Source: a virus
Length of the DNA: 64,000 nucleotides
Reading direction: 5' to 3' (one strand)
IMG/VR virus record: IMGVR_UViG_3300045988_058617
Coordinates: 30,063 to 94,062 of that record
The notes below the pieces were generated by a model. It saw only the letters and a program-made list of their open reading frames with translations. It made no database searches and was not told where the DNA came from. Positions 139-53,770 of this stretch are shown piece by piece. Each line of letters starts with the position of its first letter. Position 1 is the stretch's first letter. The translations under genes and the position numbers were made by a program.

Positions 139-488
139 AATTTAGCAAAATCTTCCTTGACTTTAGCTTTTATCTATTTTAATATGTTAAGATATTCCTT
201 ATATTCATTAATAACTTCAGAATCAGAAGTAAGATTTTCTGAATAGCTATTATATGAATTGATTAAATCAAATTCTTCATCAACTGTAAGGAATCTTCTA
301 ACTATAGCTTTTACACAATCTTTGTAATTAGGCTGCCCATTTAATAATACCTAGATAAAACTATAGTAAGTTTTTTCTTTTATGGTATTGTCTAAATCAA
401 GTACTTCAACACTAATTTCTTTTATATCATAGTTATAGTAATAAGTACCGTTCCCAAGTTTTTGGATTGTCTAAGGATAAACGTCCAT
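135..488 (-). CDS. Hypothetical protein immediately downstream of the DGR reverse transcriptase (about 117 aa). It has three in-frame TAGs and ends with TGA.
   Basis: Manual minus-strand translation from the ATG at 488–486 gives a continuous ORF to the TGA at 137–135, with TAG as the only internal stop. It has no resemblance to Avd that I can see. Confidence 0.35.
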
Positions 489-1725: not shown

Positions 1726-1853
1726 CGGAAGCGTTCGAGAATTAACCTACTAACACCCTTCATTCAACACTACGTTATCTTTTGCCTAGAGGCAAGGATA
1801 TTACTTAGCAAACTAAAAAAAAATAATAAAATGTTTCTAAATATATAATAACT

Positions 1854-1948
1854 CGACATTGGAATTGGGCATTGCTGACGTCATTGTTAGAATTGAAATA
1901 GCTGAGACCTGCATTGCTGCCATTATTCGCGTTGCTGCCTACTAGCAG
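1854..1948 (-). repeat. DGR template repeat (TR).
   Basis: A 95-nt segment homologous to 2056–2149 and 29275–29368. TR is the AT-rich copy, and every substitution relative to both VRs falls at a TR adenine (minus-strand sense). It lies between the target gene stop and the RT start. Confidence 0.8.
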
Positions 1949-2026
1949 TACTTTTTTGCCAATCAACGGTTTTTAGAAGTAATATCCTACGATTTATCAT
2001 CTAAATCGATTTTTATATTGTATATC

Positions 2027-11218: not shown

Positions 11219-11680
11219 TCATATACAAGTTCCGCAATAGCCTCGTTTGTCTTGTCTATTAATTCCTTCTCTTTCATAACATAAATTATGTTGTTCTGGA
11301 GGAAGTTTAGTAGCGTTATAATACTTAACTCTTTGCAACTTCCTACTTCTTAATTCTTCCTTAATAAATGGCAGAAATTCTTCGTCTGGTAAATCTGCTA
11401 TTATTACTAATGGCATTTCTGACCTATCAAAGTTAAAAGAGACTTTATACCCAACTGGGTCTAAACTCTCAATATCTAGTCCGCCTATATACTCCATTTT
11501 GTACAAGTCCCTCATATATTCTAGGATCACTTGTTTCAACTCTGTATGGGTCATCATATTCGTTTCTTTGCATATTAAGTTCAGGAGTTTTCTTAGTTGG
11601 AATAACTCCAAATCTTTTAATTCCTCTCTCGTCGTAATAGTAACCAAAATCTTGGAACTATTCAACTTCTTTCTCCACAA
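11219..11680 (-). CDS. Hypothetical protein ending in TGA; it overlaps the 3' end of terL in another frame. The real start is probably an internal ATG.
   Basis: ORF track, 153 aa. The terminal TGA at 11219–11221 was verified. Confidence 0.45.
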   Translation of the reverse strand: MWRKKLNSSKILVTITTREELKDLELFQLRKLLNLICKETNMMTHTELKQVILEYMRDLYKMEYIGGLDIESLDPVGYKVSFNFDRSEMPLVIIADLPDEEFLPFIKEELRSRKLQRVKYYNATKLPPEQHNLCYEREGINRQDKRGYCGTCI

Positions 11681-13832
11681 GTACGGGCTGTCTTCCTGAT
11701 AGCTCTTGGTCTGCTAACTCAGTCATACCTACAGCGGCTACAATATCATACTTACCCTTATTTTCATCATTATATGCAGTGAACTATTCTAGCATTTCTT
11801 CGAACCATATAGTATGGCAATAGTCTTCTATAAAGGCGGCTGTTAAATCAGTATGCTATTCGATTATAGTTTTTGTAGCAGGAGTTCCATACTATTTAGT
11901 AGTTCCATTTCTAACGTCAGTTAGAGTAGCTCTTGGGCGCTTCATAAAATAGTTAAGGCATCCTTTTTCTCTAGCCCAAGTAACCATACCCATACGAGTA
12001 GCTTCTATATTTATTTTACAATTATAATAGCGAGCTAAACACATAGCTATTTTATAGGCTTCTCTGATGTCTCCAGGTCTATCCTTGTACATAGCAACAT
12101 ACTGAGGGTCATTCATACCAAACGCACGTTTCTTAATCGTTATGCAGAAATCAGACGGGTCTCTGGTTTCCTTAGAAGTCTAATTCGCTCCAATATCAAT
12201 ACCGTCTATACCTGCTACATATAAGTCTCGCATCTCTTTATAAACTGGAACTTCAAAATCCTAGCCATTATCTTCTGCCTCCTATCTAAGCTTTTCCATT
12301 TGTTCTTTATATAAGTCAGACCATATTGGATGCTCTAGAATTTTTACTTTGCCATTCCTGTTAGGAATCCATTTAAAACCATCAATATTATCCTAAGTAT
12401 GTTTATTATTTTTGTAAAAATAATCAATATAACCACATTCGGGTCTTGGGCCAATTTGTTTAAGTCTTATATTAGCTATCTATTCGGCAACTAAAATTTT
12501 ATTAAACTTATTAACACCTTCTAGATTAAATGCTTCTTCTGCATTCCAACAACGTTCAGCGCATTTCTTTAGGTAGTCTTCTGGTACAGCTAACAGATTA
12601 TCTCGCTCCTCCTATAAGAATTTCTTATATTCCACAGTATTACATACTCCTCTGTGGTCCATAAATTCTGGATTCAAAGATTGTATAAAGTATGGAATAA
12701 AGAATCCACTCTCTATAGTAGTCCCATCCTAAGTCCAATTATGTCTAAATGGAAGAATCTTATATGCTCTTGGATTATAGTAAATCTTTTTTAAGCCCTC
12801 TAGAGGAGCACCCATATCACCGCCAGTACCTCCAAACAACATTGTTCCACGAGGCATACCTTGAACTTCACAAAGTTCTTGACCTTGTACCACAGCGGTA
12901 TCAAGTCCAGGCCAGGAACCAGCTTCATCATATATTAATAAATCTACACGGTCTCCACGAATGTTAGATGGTTTAGCTCCGTTAATTGCTACAACCTCAG
13001 ATTTAAATCCTACGTCTTCAAACTAACCATTTATTTTGATTTGTTTACCTGATTTCTTTCTCAAATCCTGGTCAATAAGTCGCAATTTAAAAAATCCTCC
13101 TCCAGTACAGGTATTTAAGAATGTAAGAGCATTGTCAAACTTACTAAAGGTACCCTTAAGGAAGGTATCATTAAAGCAAGTAATCATAACCCTACTTCTT
13201 CTAATAATAGAGTACATACGAGCAGAAAGAGAGGCGTTTATTTCAGAGAATCCAATAGAACGAGCTTTCATTAAAGCTGCGTGCTTGTGTAGCACCCTAG
13301 CCATCTATAGATAATGAAAGAACGTATAATGTGATGCAAAGAATATTGGGAAGTCATTATCAGTACCCTCACCAGAGGCTTTCTACTAGTCAATAGTAGG
13401 TAACTAATAGAAATTTAAGAAGAAGTAATTATCTCCAGTAATGGTGTATCCATTAACTGTCATTCCATACTTACATCTTCTATATTGCTCTTTCCAAAAT
13501 TCGTTGTACCGCTTACTATCTCTAAGGTAGGGACAGTATTGACCAGTTCGTTTATATACTTCCCTAGTCTCGGTAAACCAATCTGGATTAAAGTCCAATC
13601 CATGAGTTTCGTCAATAGGTCTGTATCCAGTTATTTCATAAGATAAGGTAGGGTCAAATACTTCTATTTTATCTCCTATTTTAACATCCCAATAGTCAGA
13701 ATTTCTGACCCTTTCCTCTCTTATTTTCTATACTAATTCTCTAGCTTCTTTAGCATCCTCTTTCTATTCTTTTTCTCTTACCTAATCTACAATATTCTAT
13801 ATTTCTTCAGGTAATATCTTTTTTCTTGGCAT
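11616..13832 (-). CDS. terL: Terminase large subunit, about 738 aa, with many in-frame TAG codons (amber-recoded).
   Basis: Frame-0 ORFs 11892–12116, 13023–13304 and 13404–13598 are joined only by TAGs. Manual translation gives MPRKKILPEEI(Q)NIVD… from ATG 13832–13830, and a Walker-B/catalytic motif …RVDLLIYDEAGSWPGLD… near 12930. The frame terminates at TAA 11616–11618. Confidence 0.8.
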
Positions 13833-14432
13833 AATTAAAAGTCTCCTGGGTCAAAACCATCCACAGCTCCAGCTCTAACAGTAGATTGTTCAGTAAGTTC
13901 TTTCTTAACCTAGTCTTCTAGTGTTATGAGTTCTTCATGAACTTTGTGAAGGGTAGCCATTTCCTTCATTACTTTTTCAGCCTGGAATACTGGCTTGCCG
14001 TTATTATCACGCTCATTTAAATCTACAATAGTTTCGAAATAATCAATAAACTAGTCTGCAGCTCTTTTAGCTGCTTCCAGTAATTTTATTGACTTGTTTG
14101 AATCTTGTAACGCTCTGTACTTCCTACAGGCTTCTCTAAATATAGGGTCGTTAAATTCCGACTCTGTCAATCCAGAATCACTAATAGCTTCGTCATGTCG
14201 TTCATGTTCCGAATACTAACTGTACGGACTTTTCCAGTCTATAGCTAAATAAATGTAAGATAGTTCTCTAGTAGCTCTATCCTTTTCTGCAGATTTATCC
14301 CTCTAGATTAAAGCCTTAAATTCCTTAACTAGCAATATCTCTGGTTCATTTATTTCTAGCTATTTAGTTAAAGTGTTATAGTTAAATACATTCATAATCA
14401 TTAATCATTATCATACACATTAGATAATCTTA

Positions 14433-14567
14433 TTATTTCTTTTTCATTTTGGAACCGCACTTATTGACTTTCATTTTTGAGCCACAAGCGTCTTTCTTAG
14501 CATATTGTTTTCTGTCAGGAACCCATTTTCCTCCCTGGAAATTACCCTTATGTCCTTTATTGGCCAT
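14433..14567 (-). CDS. Small, very basic protein (about 44 aa, MANKGHKGNFQGGKWVPDRKQYAKKDACGSKMKVNKCGSKMKKK).
   Basis: Manual translation, below the ORF-track size cut-off. Its function is unknown. Confidence 0.3.
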   Translation of the reverse strand: MANKGHKGNFQGGKWVPDRKQYAKKDACGSKMKVNKCGSKMKKK

Positions 14568-14648
14568 AGTTTCCTAATCATTGTATTTATTGATTGATAT
14601 AGAATCTCTTGAGGCTTCGTCTCTAGCAGATTTCATATCTTTCTTATA

Positions 14649-15914
14649 CTAAGCTCTTCCTGCCTTAAATTTATCAACTTCATTAGCTTTCTTAGTAACT
14701 TTAGTTCCTTTTTGTGCTTTCTGGCAAGCTTTACAGATTCTACCGCCTTGCTTAAAATATACAAGCTCTTCTCCTTCTGGACATACTCCTTTTAGCTTCT
14801 TATAATACTCAAGCTTAGCTCCAAGCCTAGCCATTACTCCTCCTTGCATTTTCTGCATAAATTCCTGATACTTAGCTTTAATGCCGTCTTCACCTAATTG
14901 TTCAGCATAAGCTTGTAAATCCTGTTCAGACTATATCTGAACTCCCTATGACTGCGCATCCTATATTAAATATGCCACAAACGCTTTTTGTAATTCTTGT
15001 TGATTATTCATTGTTCCTCCTTGTTGAAATTTAGTTGTAGGTCCCGGAGATAATGTTAATGGTTCAGCTTCTGATTTTCTAGAATTCCATACATCTCCAA
15101 GATAATTAAATAATCTCAACCTCCTATGTATCCCAAAATCTCCTCCTTGTACTGTATTTCCCATAGTATATCTACTAGTGGCCTGTACAGGATTTACTTT
15201 AGGCTTACTTGAAGGCTACTCGGCTCTTGTCTATTCACTAGCTGGCTAACGGCCTCCTGTAATAGTTGGTATTCCTCTACCCCAAGTAGTTCCTTTTGTT
15301 GTAGCAATTAGGTCTGGAGATTCTATACTAATCTAAGTACCTAACTAAGGAATCTGAATGGCAGAAGGTTGTTTAGGCTTACTTGAAGGCTACTCGGCTC
15401 TTGTCTATTCACTAGCTGGCTAACGGCCTCCTGTAATAGTTGGTATTCCTCTACCCCAAGTAGTTCCTTTTGTTGTAGCAATTAGGTCTGGAGATTCTAT
15501 ACTAATCTAAGTACCTAACTAAGGAATCTGAATGGCAGAAGGTTGTTTAGGCTTACTTGAAGGCTGTCCTAAGTCTGTAGTATATACAGAATTTCCCCAC
15601 ATAAACTGTTTTAGTCCTCTCTCTCTAGCAGCCCTAAAAGCTGTCTTAAAATCTTTAACACCTCTTAAATCATCCTAAGCTATTTCAGCAGTAGGAAGAG
15701 GTTCTAATCTTGTGGGTAATGAAGGCATTTCTGGAGCATCAAAATATGTCTCTTGTAACTTAGGCATTTTCTATTGTGCGGTTCTTCTAATAATGTCTGG
15801 ATTAGTTGCCCAAGTCTAATGCAACTACCTCAAGGTTCTCTCATCTAAGTCCGCATCTCCGTAAATAATTTTGATATTACGCATCAATTCAGGGTCAAAC
15901 TACACTTTAGCCAT
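14649..15914 (-). CDS. Late protein (recoded) containing a tandemly duplicated 58-aa P/T/Q/S-rich segment. The 3' boundary is uncertain.
   Basis: ATG at 15914–15912 (MAKV(Q)FDPELMRNIK…). The frame-0 ORFs 14961–15164 and 14649–14858 continue the same frame across TAGs. The gene carries the 174-bp repeat. Confidence 0.45.
15201..15566. repeat. Perfect 174-bp tandem direct repeat: 2 full copies plus an 18-bp third copy, in-frame within a late gene.
   Basis: Units 15201–15374 and 15375–15548 are identical. 15549–15566 restarts the unit and then diverges. 174 nt is 58 codons. Confidence 0.85.
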
Positions 15915-15916
15915 TA

Positions 15917-16069
15917 CTCTTCTACTTTAATTAAATCCTTAGTATTAAACACTGCTTCCTACATAAGTCCGGAATCAGTAAACCATCTACATCTTAATCC
16001 TCGTAATCCTTGGTTATCTTTAAATAAAGCTGCTTCTCTTCTTAGAACAAGCATAACTGGAGAGTGCAT
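15917..16069 (-). CDS. Small hypothetical protein (about 50 aa) with one in-frame TAG.
   Basis: Manual translation: MHSPVMLVLRREAALFKDNQGLRG…. Confidence 0.25.
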
Positions 16070-16124
16070 TACTTTACACTACCGTAAAGTAACACAATCC
16101 CCAGGCTTAAAATAAACTTTTTCA

Positions 16125-16742
16125 TCAATTGTTTCCATGCTTCAATTCGTCTCTTCTTTCAGTTAGTTTCTCATTAACTACAGCCATGATTCTATTCTCA
16201 TTAACTACTACAAATCCTAGTTTATAGAATGGAACCATACATTCGCTAGCTATTGTATAAAATACAATATCTCCAGGCTTCAAGAACTCACACTTGTGTC
16301 CTACTTCTATCACAGTTCCTACTTTAATAAATTGTTGTTCTTCTTCAATTTCTCCAGTCTCATTAGATTTATAAGTAGGAGTAAATCCACCTAAATCAGT
16401 AATAAGACCACTTTTAGTAGTTTTTATTTTTTGGAATGGGTTTCGTTCAAAAGGTTTAATTAATGCATACCCATACATCGGCATAATTTCAAGTCCATTC
16501 ATATCGTTAGATAATGACTTAGCGTAATCCTCTAGTGCCTGATTATGTTTGGAGAATTTATCCTCTAACTCATCTACTGCGGTATTAAACTTCTCTTGTT
16601 TTTCTCTTAATAATGTTTGGTCTGCAGCTTCTCCATTTAAAATAAAATGTTCTCCCGTACCTTCCATTCCAGTTAATGATAGTGCTAGTTTTTCGTTACT
16701 GTTTAATTCTGTTCTTAAAGTTTCCATAATCCATTTTACCAT
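16125..16742 (-). CDS. Hypothetical protein (205 aa). The C-terminal part has a GroES-like pattern (…LKPGDIVFY…). Standard coding, ends TGA.
   Basis: ORF track. No in-frame TAG. The stop tca→TGA at 16125 was verified. Confidence 0.55.
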   Translation of the reverse strand: MVKWIMETLRTELNSNEKLALSLTGMEGTGEHFILNGEAADQTLLREKQEKFNTAVDELEDKFSKHNQALEDYAKSLSNDMNGLEIMPMYGYALIKPFERNPFQKIKTTKSGLITDLGGFTPTYKSNETGEIEEEQQFIKVGTVIEVGHKCEFLKPGDIVFYTIASECMVPFYKLGFVVVNENRIMAVVNEKLTERRDELKHGNN

Positions 16743-20594: not shown

Positions 20595-20611
20595 AACTAT
20601 TAATTTTGGCG

Positions 20612-20683
20612 TTGCCCTACTAGGATTCGAACCCAGACTAAATGATTTAGAGTCATCTGTGCTGACCATTACACCATAGGGCA
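20612..20683 (-). tRNA. Amber-suppressor tRNA, anticodon CUA (reads UAG), with a Gln-tRNA-like scaffold.
   Basis: Manual fold: acceptor TGCCCTA/TAGGGCA, D arm GTGT-AATGGTCA-GCAC, anticodon stem GATGA/TCATT, loop CTCTAAA (U33, CUA, A37), T arm CTGGG-TTCGAAT-CCTAG. Its overall architecture is almost identical to tRNA-Gln(UUG) at 33540. Confidence 0.8.
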
Positions 20684-38908: not shown

Positions 38909-39519
38909 ATGGCATATATTTATTGCATTACAAATTTAATTAATAGCAAGCGATACGTAGGAAAAACTACTACTTCTATAGAAGAGCGCTGGAAGGAACA
39001 TTGTTATGACTTTTAGAAAGAAAGATGCAACAAAAGACCTTTATATGATGCCATGAATAGGTGTTGAGAACTTTATGATAGAGGAATTGGAATATGTAGA
39101 TAGTAACTCTGAATTATCTGAAAGAGCTAGGAACTTATGGTTCTAATGGGTACAATGCCTCTAAAGGAGGAGATGGCACTATTCTATACAATCATAGTGA
39201 AATTGTAGAATTAGCTAGATTGGGATATACTAGTTCTTAGATACAAGAAAAAATAGGGTGCTGTAAAGACACTATTTACAAAGTTTTGAAGGCAAATAAT
39301 ATAAAAATTAGAAAAAGTAACGCAAAGTTAATTGCTTAGTATGACTTAGCAGGTAATTTTATACAGGTATTCTTTGGTTCCAGAGAAGCTTAGGAATGGT
39401 TAATTAATAACGGAATTACTGACAATAAATCTGCATAGAGTCATATTATAGGATGCTGTAAGAATAAAACCAAATCATAGTATGGCTACATTTGGAAATA
39501 TCTTCCAGAGCCTATTTAA
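38909..39519 (+). pseudogene. GIY-YIG homing endonuclease gene (I-TevI/Seg-like) inside the tRNA array, interrupted by two frameshifts. It also contains 6 in-frame TAGs (one N-terminal, five C-terminal) and ends in TAA.
   Basis: Manual three-frame translation: frame A MAYIYCITNLINSKRYVGKTTTSIEERWKEHCYDF… (the GIY-YIG motif). It shifts near 39053–39062 to GVENFMIEELEYVDSNSELSERARNLWF, then near 39140–39150 to …GSNGYNASKGGDGTILYNHSEIVELARLGYTSS(Q)IQEKIG…. All premature stops in the last frame are TAG. Confidence 0.6.
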
Positions 39520-39665
39520 TCTTTAAATCACTGTTTCGACATTTTCAGTCTAAATGCCGTGTCTGGAGACGTTACCAACCAGTCGTGCTATACGGTTAGA
39601 ATAGTCCGTGCCTCACTGGTGATAGAGGCATCCCTGGGTAGCGGATGTAAAGTGGCTACCAATAT

Positions 39666-39743
39666 CGTGGAGTAGAGAAGTGGTCATCTCGCTAGGCTCA
39701 TAACCTAGAAATCGTCATAAACGGTTCGAATCCTACCTCCGCA
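39666..39743 (+). pseudogene. Degenerate tRNA-Met-like sequence (CAT anticodon arm CTAGG-CTCATAA-CCTAG, D arm, and a TTCGAAT T-loop) with an unpaired T-stem and a poorly paired acceptor; probably a tRNA pseudogene.
   Basis: Manual fold attempts. It resembles the intact tRNA-Met at 40851 but has about 16 nt between the anticodon stem and the T-loop. Confidence 0.3.
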
Positions 39744-39937
39744 ACGAAACTCCTTTTGTGGCCCTGAATTAGATTAATTATTAACAATTTTAAACTTTGA
39801 TGTTATGAAGAAAGTAATTAATGTTGTGAAGAAAGCTGCTAAGTGGTATTTTGAACAGAGTTCTAAGAGCTATACATGGTTAGTTTCTGGAACTATTCCG
39901 CCTCCTTATAGAGGTCTAGAGTAAAGATACTACTAAA

Positions 39938-39962
39938 AGGTAAGTACCAAAGGGGTACTTAT
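39938..39962 (+). terminator. Hairpin (taagtacc-aaag-ggtactta) upstream of tRNA-Asn.
   Basis: A perfect 8-bp inverted repeat; there is no clear T-run. Confidence 0.3.
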
Positions 39963-39988
39963 CTACACCCGTGGAGAAAATTAACTAT

Positions 39989-40060
39989 TGGGGTATAGTT
40001 CAAAGGTCAGAACTTTTGACTGTTAATCAAAGAATCATGGTTCGAGTCCATGTGCCCCAG
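39989..40060 (+). tRNA. tRNA-Asn (anticodon GTT).
   Basis: Manual fold: TGGGGTA/TGCCCCA, GTTC/GAAC, TTTGA-CTGTTAA-TCAAA, CATGG-TTCGAGT-CCATG. Confidence 0.75.
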
Positions 40061-40574
40061 CTATTGACCTTATATTAGATTATGCATCAGTGTGATTATT
40101 GTTGTTGGTACTACAGTGGAAATTGTGATTGTCCATATGTAATGAAGAAACAAGCGTGTGAAAATGCTTTGAAAACTAAAGAGAGACCTATTAGAAAAGT
40201 ACAAAATGTTTCAAACTCCAAAACTAGCTAATGAGATTTCATGGAAAGACATGAAGGAATTTAACTCTTATATGAAAGAAGTAGTTCGTGATTATAAGAT
40301 TAAACAGGCTAAATCAATTCAGAGTGCTAGAAACGTAATAATATCCTGACCTGGCAAGGTAAAAATCCATTCGGGGTTGAAGCCAGTCCCTGCGAAATCA
40401 TAGAGACCTTTTCTGACACGATAGTCGATGAACTGAGAGAGTAGCATGGTTGCGAACTTATGCTACTAGAACATGATTCAAACAAAAAAAACTTATCTGG
40501 TGTTGTTAAGTTATGGAATCTTAACAGTGGAAATTTATGGGTATGTCACCAATTAAAAAGAAAATCCCAAAAAT

Positions 40575-40647
40575 GGGCCGTTAGCTCAAATGGCTAGAGC
40601 GCTGGTTTTGCACACCGGAAGATAGGGTTCGAGTCCCTGCGTGTCCA
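40575..40647 (+). tRNA. tRNA-Ala-like (anticodon TGC) with a G3·U70 pair and A73, but a poorly paired acceptor stem (only 4 of 7 positions pair); it may be a pseudogene.
   Basis: D arm GCTC-AAATGGCTA-GAGC, anticodon stem CTGGT/ACCGG with loop TTTGCAC, T arm TAGGG-TTCGAGT-CCCTG. The acceptor GGGCCGT pairs weakly with CGTGTCC. Confidence 0.45.
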
Positions 40648-40850
40648 CAAACTTTATTTAAAAAATTATGAAAGTATATGTAGTAAATTATCACCCAGCT
40701 AATGCTCCTCAAAATTATGAAACTGATTGCCAAATCTTCTTAGACAAGAAACAGGCAGAGAAGTATAAAGAGGCTAAGGAAAAAGAGTTTCCTATTAGCT
40801 GGGGAGGAGAGTATAATCATTGTAAACTAATTAAAAAGCATTTGTAATAT

Positions 40851-40923
40851 CGCGGGATGATAGCAGAGGTAGCTAGTCAGGCTCATAACCTGAAGGTCGT
40901 CGGTTCGAATCCGACTCCCGTTA
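40851..40923 (+). tRNA. tRNA-Met (anticodon CAT) with an unpaired C1·U72.
   Basis: Manual fold: CGCGGGA/TCCCGTT, TAGC/GCTA D stem, TCAGG-CTCATAA-CCTGA, GTCGG-TTCGAAT-CCGAC. Confidence 0.65.
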
Positions 40924-40946
40924 TTTTTAACAATTAAAATTAGATT

Positions 40947-41372
40947 ATGGATTTCAAGAATCTTACAAAGGAATCTCTTCCGAAAGAATTTCAGGAGAGA
41001 ATCGAACGTTTCAATCGTTTGTTCGTTGAAGCTGGTGATGGTACATTTGAAGAAAATGACCTATTTGGTTATGAAATGGCTTGTATAAAGCAAGCCCTAT
41101 CATTCTCTGAGTTTTTCAAAGAAATGAGTCTAGAGGAATGTAAAGCCTTCTATGAGAAATATCCTAGCTTATTTGAGCTGATTGAGGCTATCAAAGACAA
41201 ACTTCCGTACTTTGATAATGGTCATAGTGGAAACTCTATGAGCATGAGTTGGATGCTATACAGGTGTTATAAGGAGAAACCCGAACTTGTTCCTTATATG
41301 CACGGTTGTTTAGCCCAACTTGTTGGGGACGAGGGCTATCATGATAACCGTTCTGATGTTCCAAAACTATGA
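40947..41372 (+). CDS. Hypothetical protein.
   Basis: ORF track, 141 aa. Confidence 0.5.
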   Translation: MDFKNLTKESLPKEFQERIERFNRLFVEAGDGTFEENDLFGYEMACIKQALSFSEFFKEMSLEECKAFYEKYPSLFELIEAIKDKLPYFDNGHSGNSMSMSWMLYRCYKEKPELVPYMHGCLAQLVGDEGYHDNRSDVPKL

Positions 41373-41559
41373 GTGTAATCCCACTAGATTAGAGAGAAAA
41401 GAACGCTATCATATTGATGGCAGTATGCTTGTAACTGACAATTACCACATTCCTATGGACTTTATAATTAATTTTCTACAGGCCAATGGTTGTATAGAAC
41501 AGAAGGATGGTAAGATGTATGTTGTATTAAAGGAAGTAGAATTTAAACCTAATTACTAA
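41355..41559 (+). CDS. Hypothetical protein (start trimmed to the internal ATG; it overlaps the previous gene by 18 nt).
   Basis: ORF track 41320–41559. Confidence 0.4.
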
Positions 41560-41945
41560 TGTTATCTATATTATTCTCAGAATTTAAGGAATGGGGTTGT
41601 CCTAATTGTGGATGTGATTCTGTGACCAGTGGTTGTTTCTCTTGCGGAGGAGTTACCTCTGGAACTTGCAGACATTGTAAACTAACATTCGAAATAAGAA
41701 GTGATAACGGAAAAGGCATAGTGCAATATGGCTCTCATCCAGAGAATCCTTCTGATCCAAATTCGGAATCCGTAATGGAGTATGCTCATCCTAGGTCCGG
41801 TGTTTCTGCCTGGCATTGGGAACCAAAAGACATTCGTCCAGAGGAAGGAGAATACTGGAGTTCTAGAGGTGTTGGATATGATTTATCTGGATTCGTAAAA
41901 ACTAAAGCTGCTGGTGAACGTATATTAGCTATGTTTGGGAACTGA
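41559..41945 (+). CDS. Cys-rich hypothetical protein (multiple CxxC).
   Basis: ORF track, 128 aa. Confidence 0.5.
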   Translation: MLSILFSEFKEWGCPNCGCDSVTSGCFSCGGVTSGTCRHCKLTFEIRSDNGKGIVQYGSHPENPSDPNSESVMEYAHPRSGVSAWHWEPKDIRPEEGEYWSSRGVGYDLSGFVKTKAAGERILAMFGN

Positions 41946-42097
41946 TAAGTGTGAGACTTATTTAGACTATAGACCTAGTGAACCAACTTGGATTCAATTT
42001 AAGTTCCAGTCTAGCGAGTTTGACTTAGAAAAGTTGGATAAGCTATCTAGAGAAGCTGATAGAGTAGTTACTAAGGAAATATTAAAACAGTGTTTAC

Positions 42098-42349
42098 ATG
42101 GCAAAAGTAATTAATAAGACAATCACAACACATCTTACAAATATGAAAGATGTAGCTGAGATTGTAAATTGGTTCTGTGACGAGGAAATGGAGCCTGGAA
42201 CTATAGTTCAGAGGTACGGAGATGCTTTAATTATCATTGGTGGGCGTAGCGGTCTATGCTATCCTAAGCTGTTTACTGTTGAGGATACGCGTCGTTTGCT
42301 TACTTGTAAGGTCACAATTTTGCCTCCTGGCTCAACTATAATGCTATAA
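42098..42349 (+). CDS. Hypothetical protein.
   Basis: ORF track, 83 aa. Confidence 0.45.
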   Translation: MAKVINKTITTHLTNMKDVAEIVNWFCDEEMEPGTIVQRYGDALIIIGGRSGLCYPKLFTVEDTRRLLTCKVTILPPGSTIML

Positions 42350-42391
42350 TTTCTTTTCTCCAGTTTTCTAATCAGAGATAAACTGGAACAT

Positions 42392-42952
42392 GGGCCTACT
42401 TGGATTTGACAGGCGATTACGAATTATAAGGACGTGTAGAGCGCAATCTCTTTAAACGAAGAAAACAAATAACTGCAGAAATTGCACCTGTAAGAATGGC
42501 AGCCTAAGCTGCTGACTTATTAATAGACAATATTAATCAAGTCGGGTTAATGGGGAGACCTAGAAACAGAAGAGGTTTGTATCTAAGTGTTATAACGAGA
42601 CCTTCAGGGAAGAATCATAGTACCTACAGGTTACAGTGAAGCTTAGATGCATTAACTTGAAAGCCAAAGGTTAGTAGAGCTGAAATCTCCACTGCCTATC
42701 TATGGGCTACAAATAGACGTTCTCCAACGTAAATGGAGTGGTGGAAGAATGACTTCTAGTCAGCCCCCAGTTTGGTAGTTTGTAAATTAGTTAGTAGGAG
42801 GACTGCTGGTTCACCTCTACTGTAAAGAATCCAGCTCTTCTAATAAAACTATCTAAATGCTAGAACTCACTAGCTGATGTAATAAAAATGAGACGCACGT
42901 TATCCTTGTAATAAGGGTTGTTTGGACACGGGTTCGACTCCCGTTAGGTCCA
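42392..42952 (+). ncRNA. ssrA: tmRNA-like gene (ssrA-like). Candidate tag reading frame GCA GAA ATT GCA CCT GTA AGA ATG GCA GCC TAA (…AEIAPVRMAA*) starts about 82 nt in.
   Basis: The 5' end GGGCCUACUUGGAUUUGACAGGCGAUUACGAA matches E. coli ssrA GGGGCUGAUUCUGGAUUCGACGGGAUUUGCGAA. The 3' end GGACACGGGTTCGACTCCCGTTAGGTCCA matches GGACGCGGGUUCAACUCCCGCCAGCUCCA. The 5' GGGCCTA pairs with the 3' TAGGTCC, with a G3·U70 pair. The 561-nt span has no ORF. Confidence 0.65.
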
Positions 42953-42978
42953 CATGACAGGGCTATAGTTCAACCGAT

Positions 42979-43050
42979 TGGGATGTAGTTTAACGGTTAG
43001 AACAAGAAACTGATAATTTCTAGACGGCAGTTCAACTCTGCCCAACTAAC
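42979..43050 (+). pseudogene. tRNA-Ile-like (anticodon GAT) with good D, anticodon and T arms but a poorly paired acceptor stem; a probable pseudo-tRNA.
   Basis: GTTT-AACGGTTA-GAAC, AGAAA-CTGATAA-TTTCT, GGCAG-TTCAACT-CTGCC. The acceptor TGGGATG against CAACTAA gives only 4 Watson-Crick pairs and 1 G·U. Confidence 0.35.
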
Positions 43051-43136
43051 ACTGTAAATAATATGTAGAAAATTTCTGAACAAATCAAACAACAAGTAAA
43101 AATCCTCAGAGAAATATGGTACTGGGATTAAATATC

Positions 43137-43180
43137 GAGGCTGTGGTGTAATGGCTTGCATATCACACTGTCATTAAAAT
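43137..43180 (+). pseudogene. tRNA 5'-half fragment (acceptor plus a GTGTAATGGC D arm resembling the Gln/Sup tRNAs) with no T arm.
   Basis: Sequence similarity to the 5' halves of the tRNAs at 33540 and 20683. No TTCGA follows. Confidence 0.3.
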
Positions 43181-43195
43181 TAATTAAACTTATCT

Positions 43196-43737
43196 GTGAA
43201 TCGAGAACAATCTCTTAAATTGTATTATGAGAATCCTAACCACTGTAAGGAATGTGGTAAGGTAATCGAAGTACTAGATAATCAGAGGGTCGCAGATGTG
43301 AGGAAGAAACAGTTTTGTAGTCATTCGTGTGCTGCTTCTTACAATAATAGAGGTAGGATAAAGCACGATGAAAACAAGATATGTCCTAGATGTGGTAAAC
43401 CTAAGCATAAAGATTCAGAAATGTGTCGTAGTTGCTGGGAAGAACTTAATGGAATTGGTAACAAAACATTAGGTTATTATACATCTACTTATCATCTAAA
43501 TGTCAAGAAATAAGGACTAATGCTCGTAGAGTATTAGAAAGTTCCGAACGTGAGAAAGTATGTCAATATTGTCATAATCATGAATTTGATGCAATACTTG
43601 AAGTACATCATCTTAAAGGAATATTAGAATTTGACGAAGACACTCTTATTAAGGAGATTAACAACGAGAATAATTTAGTATGGTTATGTCCGAATCACCA
43701 TATTATGTTAGAGAAGGGTTTAATTAGTCTGGAGTAA
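43196..43737 (+). pseudogene. Zinc-ribbon plus HNH homing-endonuclease gene split by a −1 frameshift: ORF 43196–43513 (Cys4 zinc-binding N-terminus) and an HNH domain in the −1 frame ending at 43737.
   Basis: ORF track for the first part. The downstream frame translates to …EREKVCQYCHNHEFDAILEVHHLKG…NLVWLCPNHHIMLEKG… (HNH motif) but has no ATG and overlaps the end of the first ORF. Confidence 0.5.
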
Positions 43738-43748
43738 TCCAGTTACAC

Positions 43749-43820
43749 CGAGGGTTAGTTCAGTGGTAGAATAGTGCACTGTCTATGCGAAGGTCGCCAG
43801 TTCGAGTCTGGTACTCTCGG
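43749..43820 (+). tRNA. tRNA-Asp (anticodon GTC), with the G10·U25 feature.
   Basis: Manual fold: CGAGGGT/ACTCTCG, GTTC-AGTGGTA-GAAT, GTGCA-CTGTCTA-TGCGA, GCCAG-TTCGAGT-CTGGT. The D arm matches E. coli tRNA-Asp. Confidence 0.65.
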
Positions 43821-43860
43821 CACTGTGAAGGTTGGGGTTCGAATCCCCCAGCCTCGGCAT
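43821..43860 (+). pseudogene. tRNA 3'-fragment (T arm TGGGG-TTCGAAT-CCCCA plus acceptor 3' strand GCCTCGG) immediately after tRNA-Asp, with no matching 5' half.
   Basis: Seen directly. The 3' strand is complementary to the CCGAGGG just upstream of tRNA-Asp. Confidence 0.3.
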
Positions 43861-43864
43861 TTAT

Positions 43865-43937
43865 TCCCCTGTAGTTTAGTTGGTTAGAACACGTGATTTG
43901 TAATCTCGAGACCTCGGTTCGAATCCGAGTGGGGGAT
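43865..43937 (+). tRNA. tRNA-Thr (anticodon TGT).
   Basis: Manual fold: TCCCCTG/TGGGGGA, GTTT/GAAC, CGTGA-TTTGTAA-TCTCG, CTCGG-TTCGAAT-CCGAG. Confidence 0.7.
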
Positions 43938-43964
43938 CTTAACCATTAAATTAGATTAATTTTT

Positions 43965-44639
43965 ATGACTAGATTAGAAAAGTATTTAGTAGCAACTGCT
44001 ACTGAGATTATCGAAGCGGAAACAACTGTTTCTCGCTACTTTGTCATTGGAAACGTCAAAGTTAGAGTATCAGACCATTTAAGTAAAATGAGTGATGCAG
44101 ACTTACAAGTGATTATTCCATTGAACGGAGGGACTAAGTATATAGTTACTGTTAAGGATAGTCCTGGAAAATTTCTTGTATGGAATGCAACTCAAATAAA
44201 AGACTTTATTCCTTCATTGCAGATTATTAAGGGCTTGAAGGAAGGAGTGCAACTTAAGCCAAAACCTAAAGACTCTACAGTTCAGAAGATTCAGCTAGCA
44301 TTAAATAATAGTAATACCGATGGAGGTTCGTTAACGTTTGATGGTACTATTATTGAGTCTAGATTGAAAGAAAAGCAACTTACTTCCAAACAGCGGGAAG
44401 TTTTCAGGAGAACTAAATCTACTTGGGATATTTCTCAGATTGGGACATTACCCAGTATGATTAAAGTAGATTTAGGATTGTCAAATGGTTCTGTAAACGA
44501 AGATGTGCAGATATTTCTAACTTGTACATCTTTAACCTACAAAGAAATTCTGAACATTTATAAAATAATAGTTGTTGATAACCGTATGGTTCCAACTATT
44601 AAACTGTTGCAAGAAGCTTATAGCTTGATTGTGCAGTAG
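43965..44639 (+). CDS. Hypothetical protein.
   Basis: ORF track, 224 aa. Confidence 0.55.
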   Translation: MTRLEKYLVATATEIIEAETTVSRYFVIGNVKVRVSDHLSKMSDADLQVIIPLNGGTKYIVTVKDSPGKFLVWNATQIKDFIPSLQIIKGLKEGVQLKPKPKDSTVQKIQLALNNSNTDGGSLTFDGTIIESRLKEKQLTSKQREVFRRTKSTWDISQIGTLPSMIKVDLGLSNGSVNEDVQIFLTCTSLTYKEILNIYKIIVVDNRMVPTIKLLQEAYSLIVQ

Positions 44640-44642
44640 GAT

Positions 44643-44714
44643 AGCGCCATCATCTAATGGTTAGGATTCAGGCTTTTCACGCCTGCCATACGGGTTCGAA
44701 TCCCGTTGGCGTTA
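44643..44714 (+). tRNA. tRNA-Glu (anticodon TTC).
   Basis: Manual fold: AGCGCCA/TGGCGTT, ATCT/GGAT, CAGGC-TTTTCAC-GCCTG, ACGGG-TTCGAAT-CCCGT. Confidence 0.75.
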
Positions 44715-44765
44715 CTATGTACCCCAGCAGCGAAAGTTGTTGGGGTATTTTTTGTTTAATTTAAT

Positions 44766-52753: not shown

Positions 52754-53770
52754 ATGAAGAGAATTTTTAGTATTATTTGTTTGTGTTTGATGTGTGCATT
52801 TGCTAGCGCACAAGTTGTTGAGACTGGAAGTATGAAGGATAACTGGTATATTTCTGGTAATGTTGGAACTACTATTTGGGATAACCATAGAAGTTGGGCA
52901 GAACCAAATGATGTACTAGTAAACATTGCTATTGGTAAGGAGGTTACTCCTATCTTTGGCTTGGAGTTAGACATGATGGCTGGAATGAACCAAGGAAATA
53001 AAACATTCTTTGATTCACATAATTTGACAGCTAACGTTACTACCAATCTTACTAACCTGATATGTGAATATAACGGAGATAGGCGTCTGTTTGAGCCTAT
53101 ACTAATCGTTGGTGCTGGTTGGTATCATACTTATGGAGATGTCTATAATAATGTATCCGCCCGTGGAGCCGTTAGATGTAACTTTAATATCTCTAATAGA
53201 TGGGCATTAAATGTTACTCCTGAGTATATGTTACTTCCCAAGACTTCTCCTCTGAATCATGAGTTTAACGTCTATATTGGTGCTACCTATCGCTTTAAGT
53301 CTAGCAAGGGGGACTTTCCAATTATGAAGTTGTATAGTGATGCCGAGGTTGAAAGCCTAAACGCTTCTATTAATGAGTTGAGAGCCAAGAATGAGGAACT
53401 TATGGCTCGTAAACCAATAGAAATTGTTAAGACGGACACAATCGAAATTACTAAAGTAGAGCTTTTGACTCCAAAAATTCAATTCCTTCAAAATTCTTCA
53501 GAGATTTCTAAAACTTCCAATGTGGCTGTCTCAGAACTAGCTTCCTATATTTCTAATAGTGGAAAAACTTATGTGATTGAGGGATATGCTTCGGAAGAAG
53601 GTCCAGAAGAGTTTAATAATAACCTTGCTGTAGCTAGGGCAGAATCTATGAAGAAGGCTCTGATTAGCTATGGTGCTCCAGAGGATAAATTGGTTGTTAA
53701 GGGATGCGGAATTACCACTGAATTTGGAGATAATGAATTTAATCGTATCGTAATAATTTCCGAACAATGA
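52754..53770 (+). CDS. OmpA-family outer-membrane protein (signal peptide, β-barrel-like N-terminus, and a C-terminal OmpA-like peptidoglycan-binding domain).
   Basis: ORF track, 338 aa. The signal peptide is MKRIFSIICLCLMCAFASAQ, and the C-terminus has …YVIEGYASEEGPEEFNNNLAVARAESMKKALISYG…. Confidence 0.55.
   Translation: MKRIFSIICLCLMCAFASAQVVETGSMKDNWYISGNVGTTIWDNHRSWAEPNDVLVNIAIGKEVTPIFGLELDMMAGMNQGNKTFFDSHNLTANVTTNLTNLICEYNGDRRLFEPILIVGAGWYHTYGDVYNNVSARGAVRCNFNISNRWALNVTPEYMLLPKTSPLNHEFNVYIGATYRFKSSKGDFPIMKLYSDAEVESLNASINELRAKNEELMARKPIEIVKTDTIEITKVELLTPKIQFLQNSSEISKTSNVAVSELASYISNSGKTYVIEGYASEEGPEEFNNNLAVARAESMKKALISYGAPEDKLVVKGCGITTEFGDNEFNRIVIISEQ

What the first reader, a model, noticed from the sequence alone, without database searches (positions are those of the whole stretch)
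42392..42952. Phage-encoded tmRNA-like gene, with E. coli ssrA-like ends
An ORF-free 561-nt stretch begins GGGCCUACUUGGAUUUGACAGGCGAUUACGAA and ends GGACACGGGUUCGACUCCCGUUAGGUCCA. Both ends are strikingly similar to the 5' and 3' tRNA-like-domain halves of E. coli ssrA. The 5' and 3' ends pair as an acceptor stem with a G3·U70 pair, the Ala identity element. A plausible tag ORF, GCA GAA ATT GCA CCT GTA AGA ATG GCA GCC TAA (…AEIAPVRMAA*), begins about 82 nt in. The span is longer than typical one-piece tmRNAs (about 350–400 nt), so the internal region may carry extra pseudoknot or insert sequence.
Basis: partly seen in the sequence, partly recalled or inferred. Interest (0 to 1): 0.75.

Follow-up and report, generated by a model that had tools for sequence, protein, structure and literature searches.

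The report
Oversized tmRNA gene in gut phage
This is a genuine transfer-messenger RNA (ribosome-rescue RNA) gene carried by a large human-gut phage that reads TAG as an amino acid; it belongs to a phage family of unusually long tmRNAs (513-601 nt) that ARAGORN, the usual detection program, mostly missed here, and that write a tag ending in RMAA.

Summary
The observation and its interpretation both hold. Window 42392-42952 (+) is ORF-free and matches Rfam tmRNA RF00023 over the whole model (68.8 bits, gathering 47, E 1e-24).

The 5' and 3' ends form a 7-bp acceptor stem with G3·U70 and discriminator A, beside a T arm. A 10-codon tag frame (GCA…GCC UAA, AEIAPVRMAA) starts at nt 84.

IMG/VR holds at least 71 distinct relatives (513-601 nt), mostly on 90-200 kb viral contigs.
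- Acceptor and T stems pair in 100% of cells with many compensatory changes. G3·U70, A73 and the GAC linker never change.
- 18 different tags keep frame and length (9-11 codons) and end [RK][ML][AV]A.

The gene lies in the standard-code tRNA-array region of a phage whose structural genes carry in-frame TAG. No SmpB gene lies nearby.

The RNA is about 150-200 nt longer than 114 sampled bacterial tmRNAs (335-415 nt). The extra length sits in variable hairpin modules between invariant anchors. ARAGORN misses the window gene and 3 of 4 family members tested.

Phage tmRNAs are already known, so this is a new variant of a known kind. Its role (general ribosome rescue, or rescue tied to the code switch) is inferred, not shown. 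Interest is moderate.

The parts
42392..42952 (+). Whole tmRNA (ssrA) gene, 561 nt, from G1 to discriminator A; CCA is not encoded (next bases are CAU)
   Evidence: Rfam RF00023, 68.8 bits, E 1e-24, model positions 1-374; ORF-free; CCA is absent in all 71 family members
42392..42398 (+). 5' strand of the acceptor stem, GGGCCUA, with G3 of the G3·U70 pair
   Evidence: Pairs with 42945-42951. In 71 distinct relatives, 497 of 497 cells pair; G1-C, G2-C and G3·U are invariant and positions 4-7 covary
42399..42409 (+). D-loop analogue, CUUGGAUUUGA, carrying the UUUGA(C) signature
   Evidence: Most of the phage family has UUUGAC/UUUGAU. Among 114 sampled bacterial tmRNAs, only the 6 with G-start tags (those whose source was displayed are Bacteroidales MAGs) have UUUGAC; 103 have UUCGAC
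42410..42437 (+). 5' strand of the long helix H2 (H2a 42410-42418, H2b 42424-42432, H2c 42433-42437)
   Evidence: Pairs with 42895-42924. H2a is 89-95% paired, H2b and H2c 99.5-100%, and 14 of 23 pairs show changes on both sides
42438..42461 (+). PK1 region: stem AGAG/CUCU plus downstream sequence; the second pseudoknot stem is weak
   Evidence: Rfam aligns it to PK1. The stem is kept in all members. A longer form, AGAGUU..AACUCU, has a 3-bp loop-downstream pairing GCA/UGC or GUA/UAC (sequences, read by eye)
42468..42474 (+). Pre-resume element AAUAACU, with U(-5) A(-4)
   Evidence: U(-5) A(-4) is kept in 68 of 71 distinct members, in the contexts TTTAAGT, AATAAAT, AATAACT, AATAGTT, AATAATT and TTTAGGT
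42475..42507 (+). Tag reading frame: resume codon GCA, 10 codons AEIAPVRMAA, stop UAA
   Evidence: The same frame and length hold in relatives. There are 18 tag variants, all ending [RK][ML][AV]A, with GCC/GCG/GCU synonymous changes and UAA or UGA stops
42498..42543 (+). Helix 5: hairpin GGCAGC-CUAA-GCUGCU with the stop codon in its loop (42498-42513), then hairpin 42514-42543
   Evidence: H5a is 100% paired with 2 double-sided changes; H5b is 86% paired with 3
42544..42576 (+). Conserved anchor GGGUUA…GACCUAGAAACAGAAGAGGU
   Evidence: A family-wide invariant 17-mer; it retrieved 108 IMG/VR loci
42577..42651 (+). Variable module V1: a 75-nt hairpin closed by UGUAUCUAAG/CUUAGAUGCA
   Evidence: 31 distinct V1 versions of 29-77 nt all have a terminal stem of 5-11 bp, with 16 different stem sequences; shuffled sequences give a mean of 2.6 bp. 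Rfam places it in the PK2 hairpin
42652..42768 (+). Middle body: anchors D and D2, variable module V2, hairpin CUCCA-ACGUAAA-UGGAG (42722-42738), hairpin V3
   Evidence: Conserved anchors alternate with indel-rich stretches. The 42722-42738 hairpin is 95% paired against at most 60% for slid partners
42769..42858 (+). Long helix F/G (GGUAGUUU 42774-42781 with AAACUAUC 42846-42853) carrying variable module V4 (42784-42844) at its tip
   Evidence: F/G is 98% paired with 2 double-sided changes. The V4 closing stem is 83% paired with 4 of 5 pairs changed on both sides; slid controls reach at most 59%
42859..42894 (+). PK4-like element: hairpin GCUAG-AACUCA-CUAGC, and loop CUC(A) possibly pairing with (U)GAG at 42889-42892
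   Evidence: The hairpin is 91% paired with UA/CG exchange. The candidate second stem is 88% paired against at most 50% for slid partners
42895..42927 (+). 3' strand of H2 and the invariant GAC linker (42925-42927)
   Evidence: GAC is present in 71 of 71 members
42928..42944 (+). T arm ACGGG-UUCGACU-CCCGU
   Evidence: 355 of 355 cells pair in 71 relatives, and 4 of 5 pairs show compensatory changes; the loop is UUCGANU
42945..42952 (+). 3' strand of the acceptor stem, UAGGUCC (with U70), and discriminator A
   Evidence: U70 and A73 are invariant
42979..43050 (+). tRNA-Ile(GAU), 27 nt downstream; probably co-transcribed
   Evidence: The same neighbour lies within 60 nt in 20 family loci. The next terminator-like hairpin is at 44719-44748
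20611..20683 (-). Amber-suppressor tRNA (anticodon CUA): context for the TAG recoding of this phage
   Evidence: In-frame TAG is concentrated in the structural genes at 433-16138

Best explanation
Window 42392-42952 is a functional, phage-encoded one-piece tmRNA (ssrA) gene of an expanded size class. Shown: it has every sequence and structure hallmark of tmRNA and is under purifying and compensatory selection in a large family of big gut-phage genomes. Inferred from established tmRNA biology: (1) it is transcribed with the phage tRNA array in the standard-code part of the genome; (2) it is cut at G1 by RNase P, trimmed at its 3' end, and given CCA by the host CCA-adding enzyme, because CCA is not encoded; (3) host AlaRS charges it with alanine through G3·U70 and A73; (4) it binds SmpB, most likely the host's since none is encoded nearby, and EF-Tu; (5) it enters ribosomes stalled with an empty A site, the nascent chain is transferred to Ala-tmRNA, and translation resumes at GCA (nt 84); (6) this adds (A)AEIAPVRMAA, terminates at UAA and frees the ribosome. 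The most likely benefit is keeping ribosomes available in an infected cell where non-stop complexes are expected to rise. Two expected sources are decay of host mRNA and read-through of stop codons to mRNA 3' ends once the phage's amber and ochre suppressor tRNAs are made. The conserved, non-host-like C-terminus [RK]MAA probably still acts as a C-terminal degron. The variable hairpin modules probably serve folding, stability or partner binding rather than decoding.
For: Identity: Rfam RF00023 full-length hit at 68.8 bits against a gathering score of 47, E 1e-24.
TLD selection: in 71 distinct relatives the acceptor pairs in 497 of 497 cells and the T stem in 355 of 355. G3·U70, A73 and GAC are invariant, with up to 3-4 pair types per position elsewhere.
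Tool control on 23 diverse members: 94.3% of cells pair, against 37-47% with slid partners. 25 of 49 pairs change on both sides (4-9 when slid). Covariation score is 0.333 against at most 0.084, and 0 of 500 shuffles reach it.
Tag: 18 variants, all 9-11 codons in the same frame, all ending [RK][ML][AV]A. There are synonymous third-base changes, UAA or UGA stops, and U(-5)A(-4) conserved before a GCN or GGN resume codon.
Phage context: a P22-like portal, a DGR reverse transcriptase and other phage genes. In-frame TAG occurs at 6-28 per gene in the structural genes on the minus strand, while the tmRNA lies in the + strand region where most ORFs have none, among 23-27 tRNAs.
Family: 108 IMG/VR loci, mostly on contigs of 90-200 kb.
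Not a recent bacterial copy: no bacterial tmRNA in a 114-genome sample resembles it beyond the 3' 35 nt.
Background: tmRNA mechanism and typical length of about 360 nt (PMC8012679); tmRNA acts at unassigned or read-through UAG (PMC6207430); phage tmRNAs are known (PMC7162821, PMC9004378).
Against: No expression, aminoacylation or tagging data exist, so function rests on conservation.
SmpB was not found, so activity depends on a host partner that was not examined; the host itself is not identified.
The Rfam score is modest for a tmRNA, and the middle 350 nt does not fit the canonical PK2-PK4 layout. The second stem of PK1 is weak.
An ochre-suppressor tRNA (UUA) in the same genome could read through the tag's UAA stop.
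The link to code switching is only circumstantial. The loci held for relatives lie in standard-code regions, so family-wide recoding could not be tested.
Confidence: 0.85

Rival explanations
1. The tmRNA is a dedicated part of the phage's code-switch toolkit. Once the suppressor tRNAs turn TAG (and perhaps TAA) into sense, ribosomes on host and early-phage mRNAs run through their stops to the 3' end. The phage tmRNA then rescues them and marks those read-through proteins with a phage-specific degron (…RMAA). This clears the standard-code proteome and frees ribosomes for recoded late genes.
For: The window phage is TAG-recoded and encodes CUA and UUA suppressor tRNAs 19-22 kb from the tmRNA. 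The tmRNA lies in the standard-code region, which could be expressed before the switch. The tag's terminating codon is UAA or UGA, never UAG, in the 68 distinct members where it could be read. The tag C-terminus differs consistently from the Bacteroidales YALAA. tmRNA is known to act on ribosomes at unassigned UAG and to degrade UAG-ending proteins in a recoded E. coli (PMC6207430).
Against: Bacterial tmRNAs also normally stop at UAA, so avoidance of UAG is not diagnostic. Recoding of the other family members could not be assessed. Phage tmRNAs also occur in standard-code phages (PMC9004378, PMC12484599). The recoding survey read here does not mention tmRNA. No protease or adaptor for RMAA is known.
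Confidence: 0.2
2. The RNA is a decoy or inhibitor: it binds host SmpB, AlaRS or ribosomes to shut down host trans-translation, or to sense stalled ribosomes, rather than to tag proteins productively.
For: No SmpB is encoded nearby, so the RNA must compete for the host protein. The body is oversized and variable.
Against: A decoy would not need a tag frame. Here the frame, length, resume context, C-terminal residues and stop codon are conserved through 18 variants with synonymous changes.
Confidence: 0.05
3. It is not a working phage gene. It could be a host ssrA at a prophage-host junction or a chimeric assembly, a decaying relic, or merely an attP-like copy of the ssrA 3' end used for integration.
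For: ssrA is a common integration site. The last ~35 nt are nearly identical to Bacteroidales tmRNA 3' ends.
Against: The full-length gene is flanked on both sides by phage genes and tRNAs. It recurs on about 100 viral contigs of up to 190-270 kb. No integrase domain was found in the ORFs of 90 aa or more scanned across the 64-kb window. The 5' half, H2 and the tag are conserved with compensatory changes. No bacterial tmRNA matches beyond the 3' end.
Confidence: 0.03
4. It is an ordinary-sized tmRNA interrupted by a self-splicing intron or a mobile insertion, which would explain the extra ~200 nt.
For: Length 561 nt against about 353 nt. Rfam's alignment shows one 156-nt and one 42-nt unaligned block.
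Against: No intron or other RNA family matches the region at E of 1 or less. There is no ORF. The extra length is spread over at least four modules separated by invariant anchors. Each module varies independently in length and keeps its own closing stem. Every one of the 71 distinct members is 513 nt or longer.
Confidence: 0.04

Closest known systems
Bacterial one-piece tmRNA (ssrA; Rfam RF00023), especially the Bacteroidales type
   Same: Same order of parts: acceptor stem with G3·U70 and A73, T arm, GAC linker, long helix H2, PK1 region, U(-5)A(-4) followed by a resume codon, a 9-11 codon tag ending in two small residues, the stop codon in the helix 5 loop, and a pseudoknot-rich body. It shares the UUUGAC D-loop signature and, in about 40% of family members, GGN resume codons with GNT…/GE… tags. 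In the bacterial sample these features occur only in the 6 tmRNAs with G-start tags; the ones whose source was displayed are Bacteroidales MAGs.
   Different: Length 513-601 nt (561 here) against 335-415 nt in 114 bacterial genes. The body between helix 5 and PK4 is rebuilt as invariant anchors plus variable hairpin modules and does not map cleanly onto PK2 and PK3. The tag ends [RK]MAA instead of YALAA. Acceptor pair 4 is C-G, not G-C. It is encoded by a phage without an adjacent smpB. There is no sequence similarity beyond the 3' ~35 nt.
Previously reported phage-encoded tmRNAs (huge phages, Al-Shayeb 2020, PMC7162821; 402 of 18,146 phage genomes and the two-piece tmRNA of Melnitz, PMC9004378; phage G, 308 nt, PMC12484599)
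   Same: A complete ssrA gene carried by a large phage, alongside tRNAs and other translation-related genes. Function is inferred only from homology.
   Different: Those were all found with ARAGORN and are of ordinary or small size. This family exceeds what ARAGORN handled here: it missed the window gene and 3 of 4 family members tested, and gave a wrong tag for the one 515-nt member it found. The family is absent or unannotated in the 50,697-record GenBank phage set, where only two unannotated fragments match. It comes from human-gut phages, and this one uses TAG as sense.
Code-change modules of stop-codon-recoded phages (suppressor tRNA, release factor, aaRS; Borges et al., bioRxiv 10.1101/2021.08.26.457843)
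   Same: Translation-machinery genes encoded in standard code in a phage whose late genes are recoded. Suppressor tRNAs are present in the same genome.
   Different: tmRNA is not mentioned in that survey. A functional tie between this tmRNA and the switch is a hypothesis, not a finding.

Membership tests
tmRNA (ssrA, RF00023) | Covariance-model score at or above Rfam's gathering threshold over the full model | tested here: met
   68.8 bits against 47, model positions 1-374, E 1.1e-24
tmRNA (ssrA, RF00023) | tRNA-like domain built from the 5' and 3' ends: a 7-bp acceptor stem and a 5-bp T stem with a T-loop consensus, and no anticodon arm | tested here: met
   The acceptor pairs in 497 of 497 cells and the T stem in 355 of 355 across 71 relatives, with compensatory changes. 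The loop is UUCGANU
tmRNA (ssrA, RF00023) | Alanine identity: G3·U70 wobble pair and discriminator A73 | tested here: met
   Invariant in 71 of 71 while positions 4-7 covary. Actual charging was not tested
tmRNA (ssrA, RF00023) | Long helix H2 joining the tRNA-like domain to the body | tested here: met
   H2a, H2b and H2c are 89-100% paired, and 14 of 23 pairs change on both sides. Slid controls reach 37-47% for the structure as a whole
tmRNA (ssrA, RF00023) | mRNA-like domain: a start-codon-less tag frame that begins at a resume codon after a conserved upstream element, encodes a short tag with a hydrophobic/Ala-Ala C-terminus, and ends at a stop codon in or near helix 5 | tested here: met
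   GCA at nt 84 follows U(-5)A(-4). There are 10 codons and a UAA in the loop of helix 5a. The frame is conserved through 18 variants
tmRNA (ssrA, RF00023) | Four pseudoknots (PK1 before the tag, PK2-PK4 after helix 5) | tested here: inconclusive
   The PK1 stem is present but its second stem is only 2-3 bp. A PK4-like hairpin with a candidate 3-4 bp second stem is supported. The PK2/PK3 region is replaced by anchors plus variable hairpins. Long-range helices could not be told apart from slid controls, and an H-type knot in V4 is significant only in some variants
tmRNA (ssrA, RF00023) | Works with SmpB | not testable with these tools
   No SmpB domain or homologue in the 64-kb window or in 85 family loci. 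The rest of the ~190-kb genome and the host were not available
tmRNA (ssrA, RF00023) | 3' CCA end for aminoacylation | tested here: not met
   CCA is not encoded in the gene (next bases CAU; none of the 71 relatives encodes it), as is true of most tRNAs in the window. It must be added after transcription, which is normal in many bacteria, so this does not argue against membership
Phage-encoded tmRNA (as opposed to host ssrA at a prophage border) | Full-length gene embedded among phage genes and recurring in related viral genomes | tested here: met
   Phage portal, RT/DGR, tRNA array and recoded structural genes lie in the same window. There are 108 IMG/VR loci, mostly on 90-200 kb contigs. No integrase domain was found
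Intron-containing or permuted (two-piece) tmRNA | A group I intron in the gene, or the acceptor 3' half encoded upstream of the 5' half | tested here: not met
   No intron family matches at E of 1 or less. tmRNA_permuted scores only 25.7 and 20.3 bits against a gathering score of 47, and the order of parts is the standard one-piece order

The most novel reading that the evidence does not exclude
The oversized tmRNA is a working component of the phage's genetic-code switch. When the phage's suppressor tRNAs abolish termination at TAG, ribosomes on host and early mRNAs run off the 3' ends. The phage tmRNA rescues them and stamps the read-through, standard-code proteins with a phage-specific degron (…[RK]MAA) that differs from the host's …YALAA. 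This would couple recoding to selective clearance of the pre-switch proteome. The variable expansion hairpins would recruit phage factors or protect the RNA from host nucleases.
Probability: 0.2. Interest if true: 0.75.

Novelty: new variant of a known kind. Interest (0 to 1): 0.5.

Why it matters
Phage tmRNAs have been catalogued almost only with ARAGORN. That program missed this gene and 3 of 4 family members tested here, and mis-read the tag of the one it found. A widespread human-gut phage lineage therefore carries a ribosome-rescue RNA that is not annotated in the GenBank phage records searched.

The family gives a natural data set for asking what the pseudoknot body of tmRNA tolerates. 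It has 71 or more variants, four independently varying modules and 18 tags.

It shows a conserved, non-canonical tag C-terminus ([RK]MAA) whose protease or adaptor is unknown.

In this window it also places a ribosome-rescue RNA in the same genome as suppressor tRNAs and TAG-recoded late genes. That makes one open question directly testable: how recoded phages cope with the read-through and stalling that their own code switch must cause.

Tried and rejected
1. ARAGORN on the window found no tmRNA. Run locally in tmRNA mode, it finds only the 515-nt family member, with a wrong tag.

2. I looked for the bacterial source. A scan of 185,579 species genomes for the T-arm/acceptor 29-mer gave at least 120 loci from Lachnospiraceae, Cyanobacteria, Akkermansia, Bacteroidales and others. 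An nhmmer search with the family profile matched only the last ~35 nt. Crude end-alignment scores did not separate phyla. Only the UUUGAC signature and the G-start tags point to Bacteroidales.

3. Host identification through the OmpA-like protein failed.

4. Testing whether relatives are TAG-recoded was uninformative. ORF-gain and long-ORF counts on the 85 family loci did not help, because the loci lie in standard-code regions and AT-rich DNA inflates the TAA control.

5. An intron or mobile insert is rejected.

6. An H-type pseudoknot in module V4 is strong in a few variants (z 3.2-3.8). For the window z is 1.5 and the family median is about 0, so I do not claim it.

7. RNAalifold's long-range helices 153-157/372-376, 160-164/296-300 and 379-382/500-503 are not distinguishable from slid controls, so I do not claim them. 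Rfam's placement of a 'PK3' stem (GGUUAGUAGAG/UCUUCUAAU) is not supported in other variants, where the two segments are direct rather than inverted repeats (read).

8. A sigma-70 promoter scan around the gene gave no more hits than in shuffles.

9. GenBank phage searches with the window and two divergent members found only two unannotated fragments.
Full report
**1. The observation**

No ORF of 30 aa or more on either strand lies inside it. Rfam's tmRNA model RF00023 matches 42392-42955 over its whole length (positions 1-374). The score is 68.8 bits against a gathering score of 47, with E = 1.1e-24 for the 64-kb window. A permissive scan of the region finds no other family apart from weak sub-threshold hits to the permuted-tmRNA model, and no intron.

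Nucleotides 1-7 (GGGCCUA) pair with 554-560 (UAGGUCC), including G3·U70. A561 is the discriminator. A 5-bp T stem with loop UUCGACU and a GAC linker precede the 3' acceptor strand. The single-sequence fold recovers these helices and the long H2 helix, with z = -3.05. ARAGORN did not call the gene.

**2. Surroundings**

The window is phage DNA.
- *In-frame TAG.* The minus-strand genes at 433-16138 are open only if TAG is read as sense, with 6-28 in-frame TAGs per gene. Most + strand ORFs from about 21 kb onward, where the tmRNA lies, have none.
- *Pfam domains.* Pfam finds a P22-like portal at 9106-11277, a reverse transcriptase at 433-1770, PD-(D/E)XK nucleases, an AAA ATPase, RNase H, NAMPT, a helicase, two Band-7 proteins, an OmpA-like outer-membrane protein and a glucosaminidase. 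It finds no SmpB and no integrase.
- *tRNAs.* The tmRNA sits inside an array of 23 (ARAGORN) to 27 (Rfam) tRNA genes and is followed after 27 nt by tRNA-Ile(GAU).
- *Suppressor tRNAs.* Suppressor tRNAs with anticodons CUA and UUA lie at about 20.6 and 23.6 kb.
- *GenBank.* Identical DNA exists in GenBank only as unannotated 'Bacteriophage sp.' fragments from human faeces.

**3. Relatives**

Three pattern scans of IMG/VR recovered the family. The third used the invariant interior 17-mer CCTAGAAACAGAAGAGG and gave 108 loci, mostly on contigs of 90-200 kb. Profile searches then extracted 85 near-complete genes, of which 71 are distinct, with lengths of 513-601 nt and a median of 551.

*The tRNA-like domain is under strong structural selection.*
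- The acceptor stem pairs in 497 of 497 cells. G1-C, G2-C and G3·U are invariant, and positions 4-7 covary (C-G/G-C; C-G/U-A/A-U; U-A/A-U; G-C/A-U/U-A).
- The T stem pairs in 355 of 355 cells with up to three pair types per position.
- Discriminator A and the GAC linker are invariant.

*Tool control on 23 diverse members.* Eight helices (H2a-c, PK1 stem, H5a-b, PK4 hairpin, T stem) were scored:

| Measure | Observed | Slid partners | Shuffles |
|---|---|---|---|
| Cells paired | 94.3% | 37-47% | 83.7% (mean) |
| Pairs changed on both sides (of 49) | 25 | 4-9 | 13.4 (mean) |
| Covariation score | 0.333 | 0.084 or less | 0 of 500 reach it |

**4. The tag**

- The resume codon (GCN, or GGN in about 40% of members) follows a conserved U(-5)A(-4).
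- The frame runs 9-11 codons.
- It ends in UAA (65 of the 68 members where the frame was parsed) or UGA (3), with the stop in the loop of a 6-bp hairpin.

There are 18 distinct tags: AEIAPVRMAA (window), ATYSEVRMAA, AERSDVRMAA, AERSDYRMAA, AEIDYNRMAA, GNTEVRMAA, GNTTYRMAA, GETEGFRMAA, GNTRVKMAA, ANNSVRLAA and others. They differ by in-frame block replacements and synonymous changes (GCC, GCG, GCU). All end [RK][ML][AV]A. This is what a translated tag with a selected C-terminal degron should look like.

**5. What is unusual**

*(a) Size.* 114 bacterial tmRNAs that share the same T-arm sequence are 335-415 nt long, median 353. A review gives about 360 nt as typical (PMC8012679). The phage family is 513-601 nt.

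*(b) Where the extra length sits.* It is not one insert. Invariant anchors alternate with modules that vary independently.
- V1 (29-77 nt) always forms a hairpin. It has 16 different closing stems of 5-11 bp, against a mean of 2.6 bp in shuffled sequences.
- The F/G helix and the closing stem of V4 (38-76 nt) are supported by compensatory changes.
- A PK4-like hairpin with a short second stem is plausible.
- The overall topology of nt 153-503 remains unresolved. The long-range helices proposed by RNAalifold, and an H-type knot in V4, did not beat their controls.

*(c) Detection.* ARAGORN, the tool used in the phage tmRNA surveys read here (PMC7162821, PMC9004378, PMC12484599, PMC12291355), missed the window gene and the three other members of 547-574 nt that were tested. 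It mis-read the tag of the single 515-nt member it did find.

*(d) Tag ending.* The tag ends RMAA rather than the YALAA of Bacteroidales tags.

**6. Origin and host**

No sampled bacterial tmRNA resembles the phage RNA beyond its last ~35 nt. Crude end alignments do not discriminate phyla. Two signatures do. The D-loop analogue reads UUUGAC/UUUGAU in most of the phage family. Among the 114 bacterial genes, UUUGAC occurs only in the six with G-start tags (GENNYALAA, GNTSYALAA and one other). Those whose source was displayed are Bacteroidales MAGs, and 103 others read UUCGAC. About 40% of phage members likewise use a GGN resume codon with GNT…/GE… tags.

Together with an OmpA-like outer-membrane protein whose signal peptide looks Bacteroidota-style (my reading, not tested), this points to an old acquisition from a Bacteroidales-type ssrA and a Bacteroidota host. 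This is an inference. A direct attempt to name the host failed.

**7. How it most likely works**

*Shown:* all sequence and structure determinants of a chargeable, translatable tmRNA are present and conserved.

*Inferred from established tmRNA biology (PMC8012679):*
- RNase P and 3' processing act on a transcript shared with the tRNA array.
- CCA is added by the host. None of the 71 genes, and few of the phage tRNAs, encode it.
- Alanylation occurs through G3·U70 and A73.
- SmpB binds. So it is probably the host's.
- The complex enters ribosomes with an empty A site.
- (A)AEIAPVRMAA is added, translation terminates at UAA and the ribosome is released.

The likely benefit is keeping ribosomes available while host mRNAs decay and while the phage's own suppressor tRNAs drive read-through to mRNA ends. 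The stronger idea, that the tmRNA is an integral part of the code switch, is compatible with the data and with the finding that tmRNA acts at unassigned UAG in recoded E. coli (PMC6207430). It is untested: relatives' recoding status could not be read from the loci held, and the recoding survey read here does not mention tmRNA.

**8. Rivals**

| Rival | Main evidence against |
|---|---|
| Host ssrA at a prophage border, an assembly chimera or an attP-like remnant | Phage genes on both sides, about 100 viral contigs, no integrase, conservation of the 5' half and the tag |
| Intron or mobile insert | No intron family hit, no ORF, distributed modular extra length |
| Pure decoy RNA | Hard to reconcile with the conserved tag frame |

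**9. Comparison and verdict**

It works like, and passes the testable membership criteria of, one-piece tmRNA. The only inconclusive criterion is the canonical four-pseudoknot layout. Phage-encoded tmRNAs are an established category. They are reported in huge phages (PMC7162821), and one survey found them in 402 of 18,146 phage genomes (2.3%; PMC9004378).

The new elements are the expanded, modular architecture, the family-specific [RK]MAA tag ending, the family's absence from annotation, and its occurrence in a TAG-recoded gut phage. I rate it a new variant of a known kind, with moderate interest (0.5). Confidence that it is a functional tmRNA gene is high. Confidence in any specific biological role is low.

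Noticed in passing
window 433-3844 (- strand); repeats 1868-1948 and 2069-2149: Diversity-generating retroelement. A reverse-transcriptase ORF (433-1770, Pfam RVT_1) lies next to a tail-fibre-like ORF (2027-3844). An 81-nt template-like repeat is 83% identical to a copy inside the 3' end of that ORF, with differences mostly at T on the + strand (A on the coding strand).
   Followed up: partly
window 23597-23666 (+) and 20611-20683 (-): The phage has a clean-cloverleaf tRNA with anticodon UUA (ochre suppressor) as well as the amber-suppressor tRNA (CUA). Yet the ORFs called in the window end in TAA (43) or TGA (18), and the tmRNA tag stops at UAA. How termination at UAA is kept is unexplained.
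   Followed up: partly
window 433-16138 (-) versus 21000-64000 (+): The use of TAG is sharply divided. There are 6-28 in-frame TAGs per gene in the structural module (portal and neighbouring large ORFs), and none in most + strand genes, including the whole tRNA/tmRNA region.
   Followed up: yes
window 26162-44715 (+): A tRNA array of 23 (ARAGORN) to 27 (Rfam) genes is interspersed with small ORFs. Almost none of the tRNAs, and not the tmRNA, encode the 3' CCA.
   Followed up: partly
window 42360-42386 (+): A hairpin CCAGTTT…AAACTGG ends 5 nt before the tmRNA 5' end and has no T-run after it. It could be a processing or insulating element between the upstream ORF (42098-42349) and the tmRNA.
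   Followed up: no
window 14433-15914 (-): The 493-aa TAG-rich ORF contains an exact tandem duplication of about 58 aa (QPSSKPKQPSAIQIPQLGTQISIESPDLIATTKGTTWGRGIPTITGGRQPASEQTRAE) (translation).
   Followed up: no
window 52754-53770 (+): An OmpA-family outer-membrane beta-barrel protein with a signal peptide, encoded by the phage. Close homologues occur only in the same phage family, and the nearest other hits are 28-30% identical.
   Followed up: partly
loci L003/L210 (5500-5894) and L158 (317-736): Other, ordinary-sized tmRNAs (about 395-420 nt) lie on viral contigs of 20 and 251 kb and are unrelated to this family. ARAGORN's tag calls for them were not checked. L003 shares the ACCUAGGAACAGAAG motif with the window family.
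   Followed up: no
loci L368 and L350 (family members): Two family members end the tag with a tandem UAA UAG. All others have a single UAA or UGA followed by GCU or GCA.
   Followed up: no
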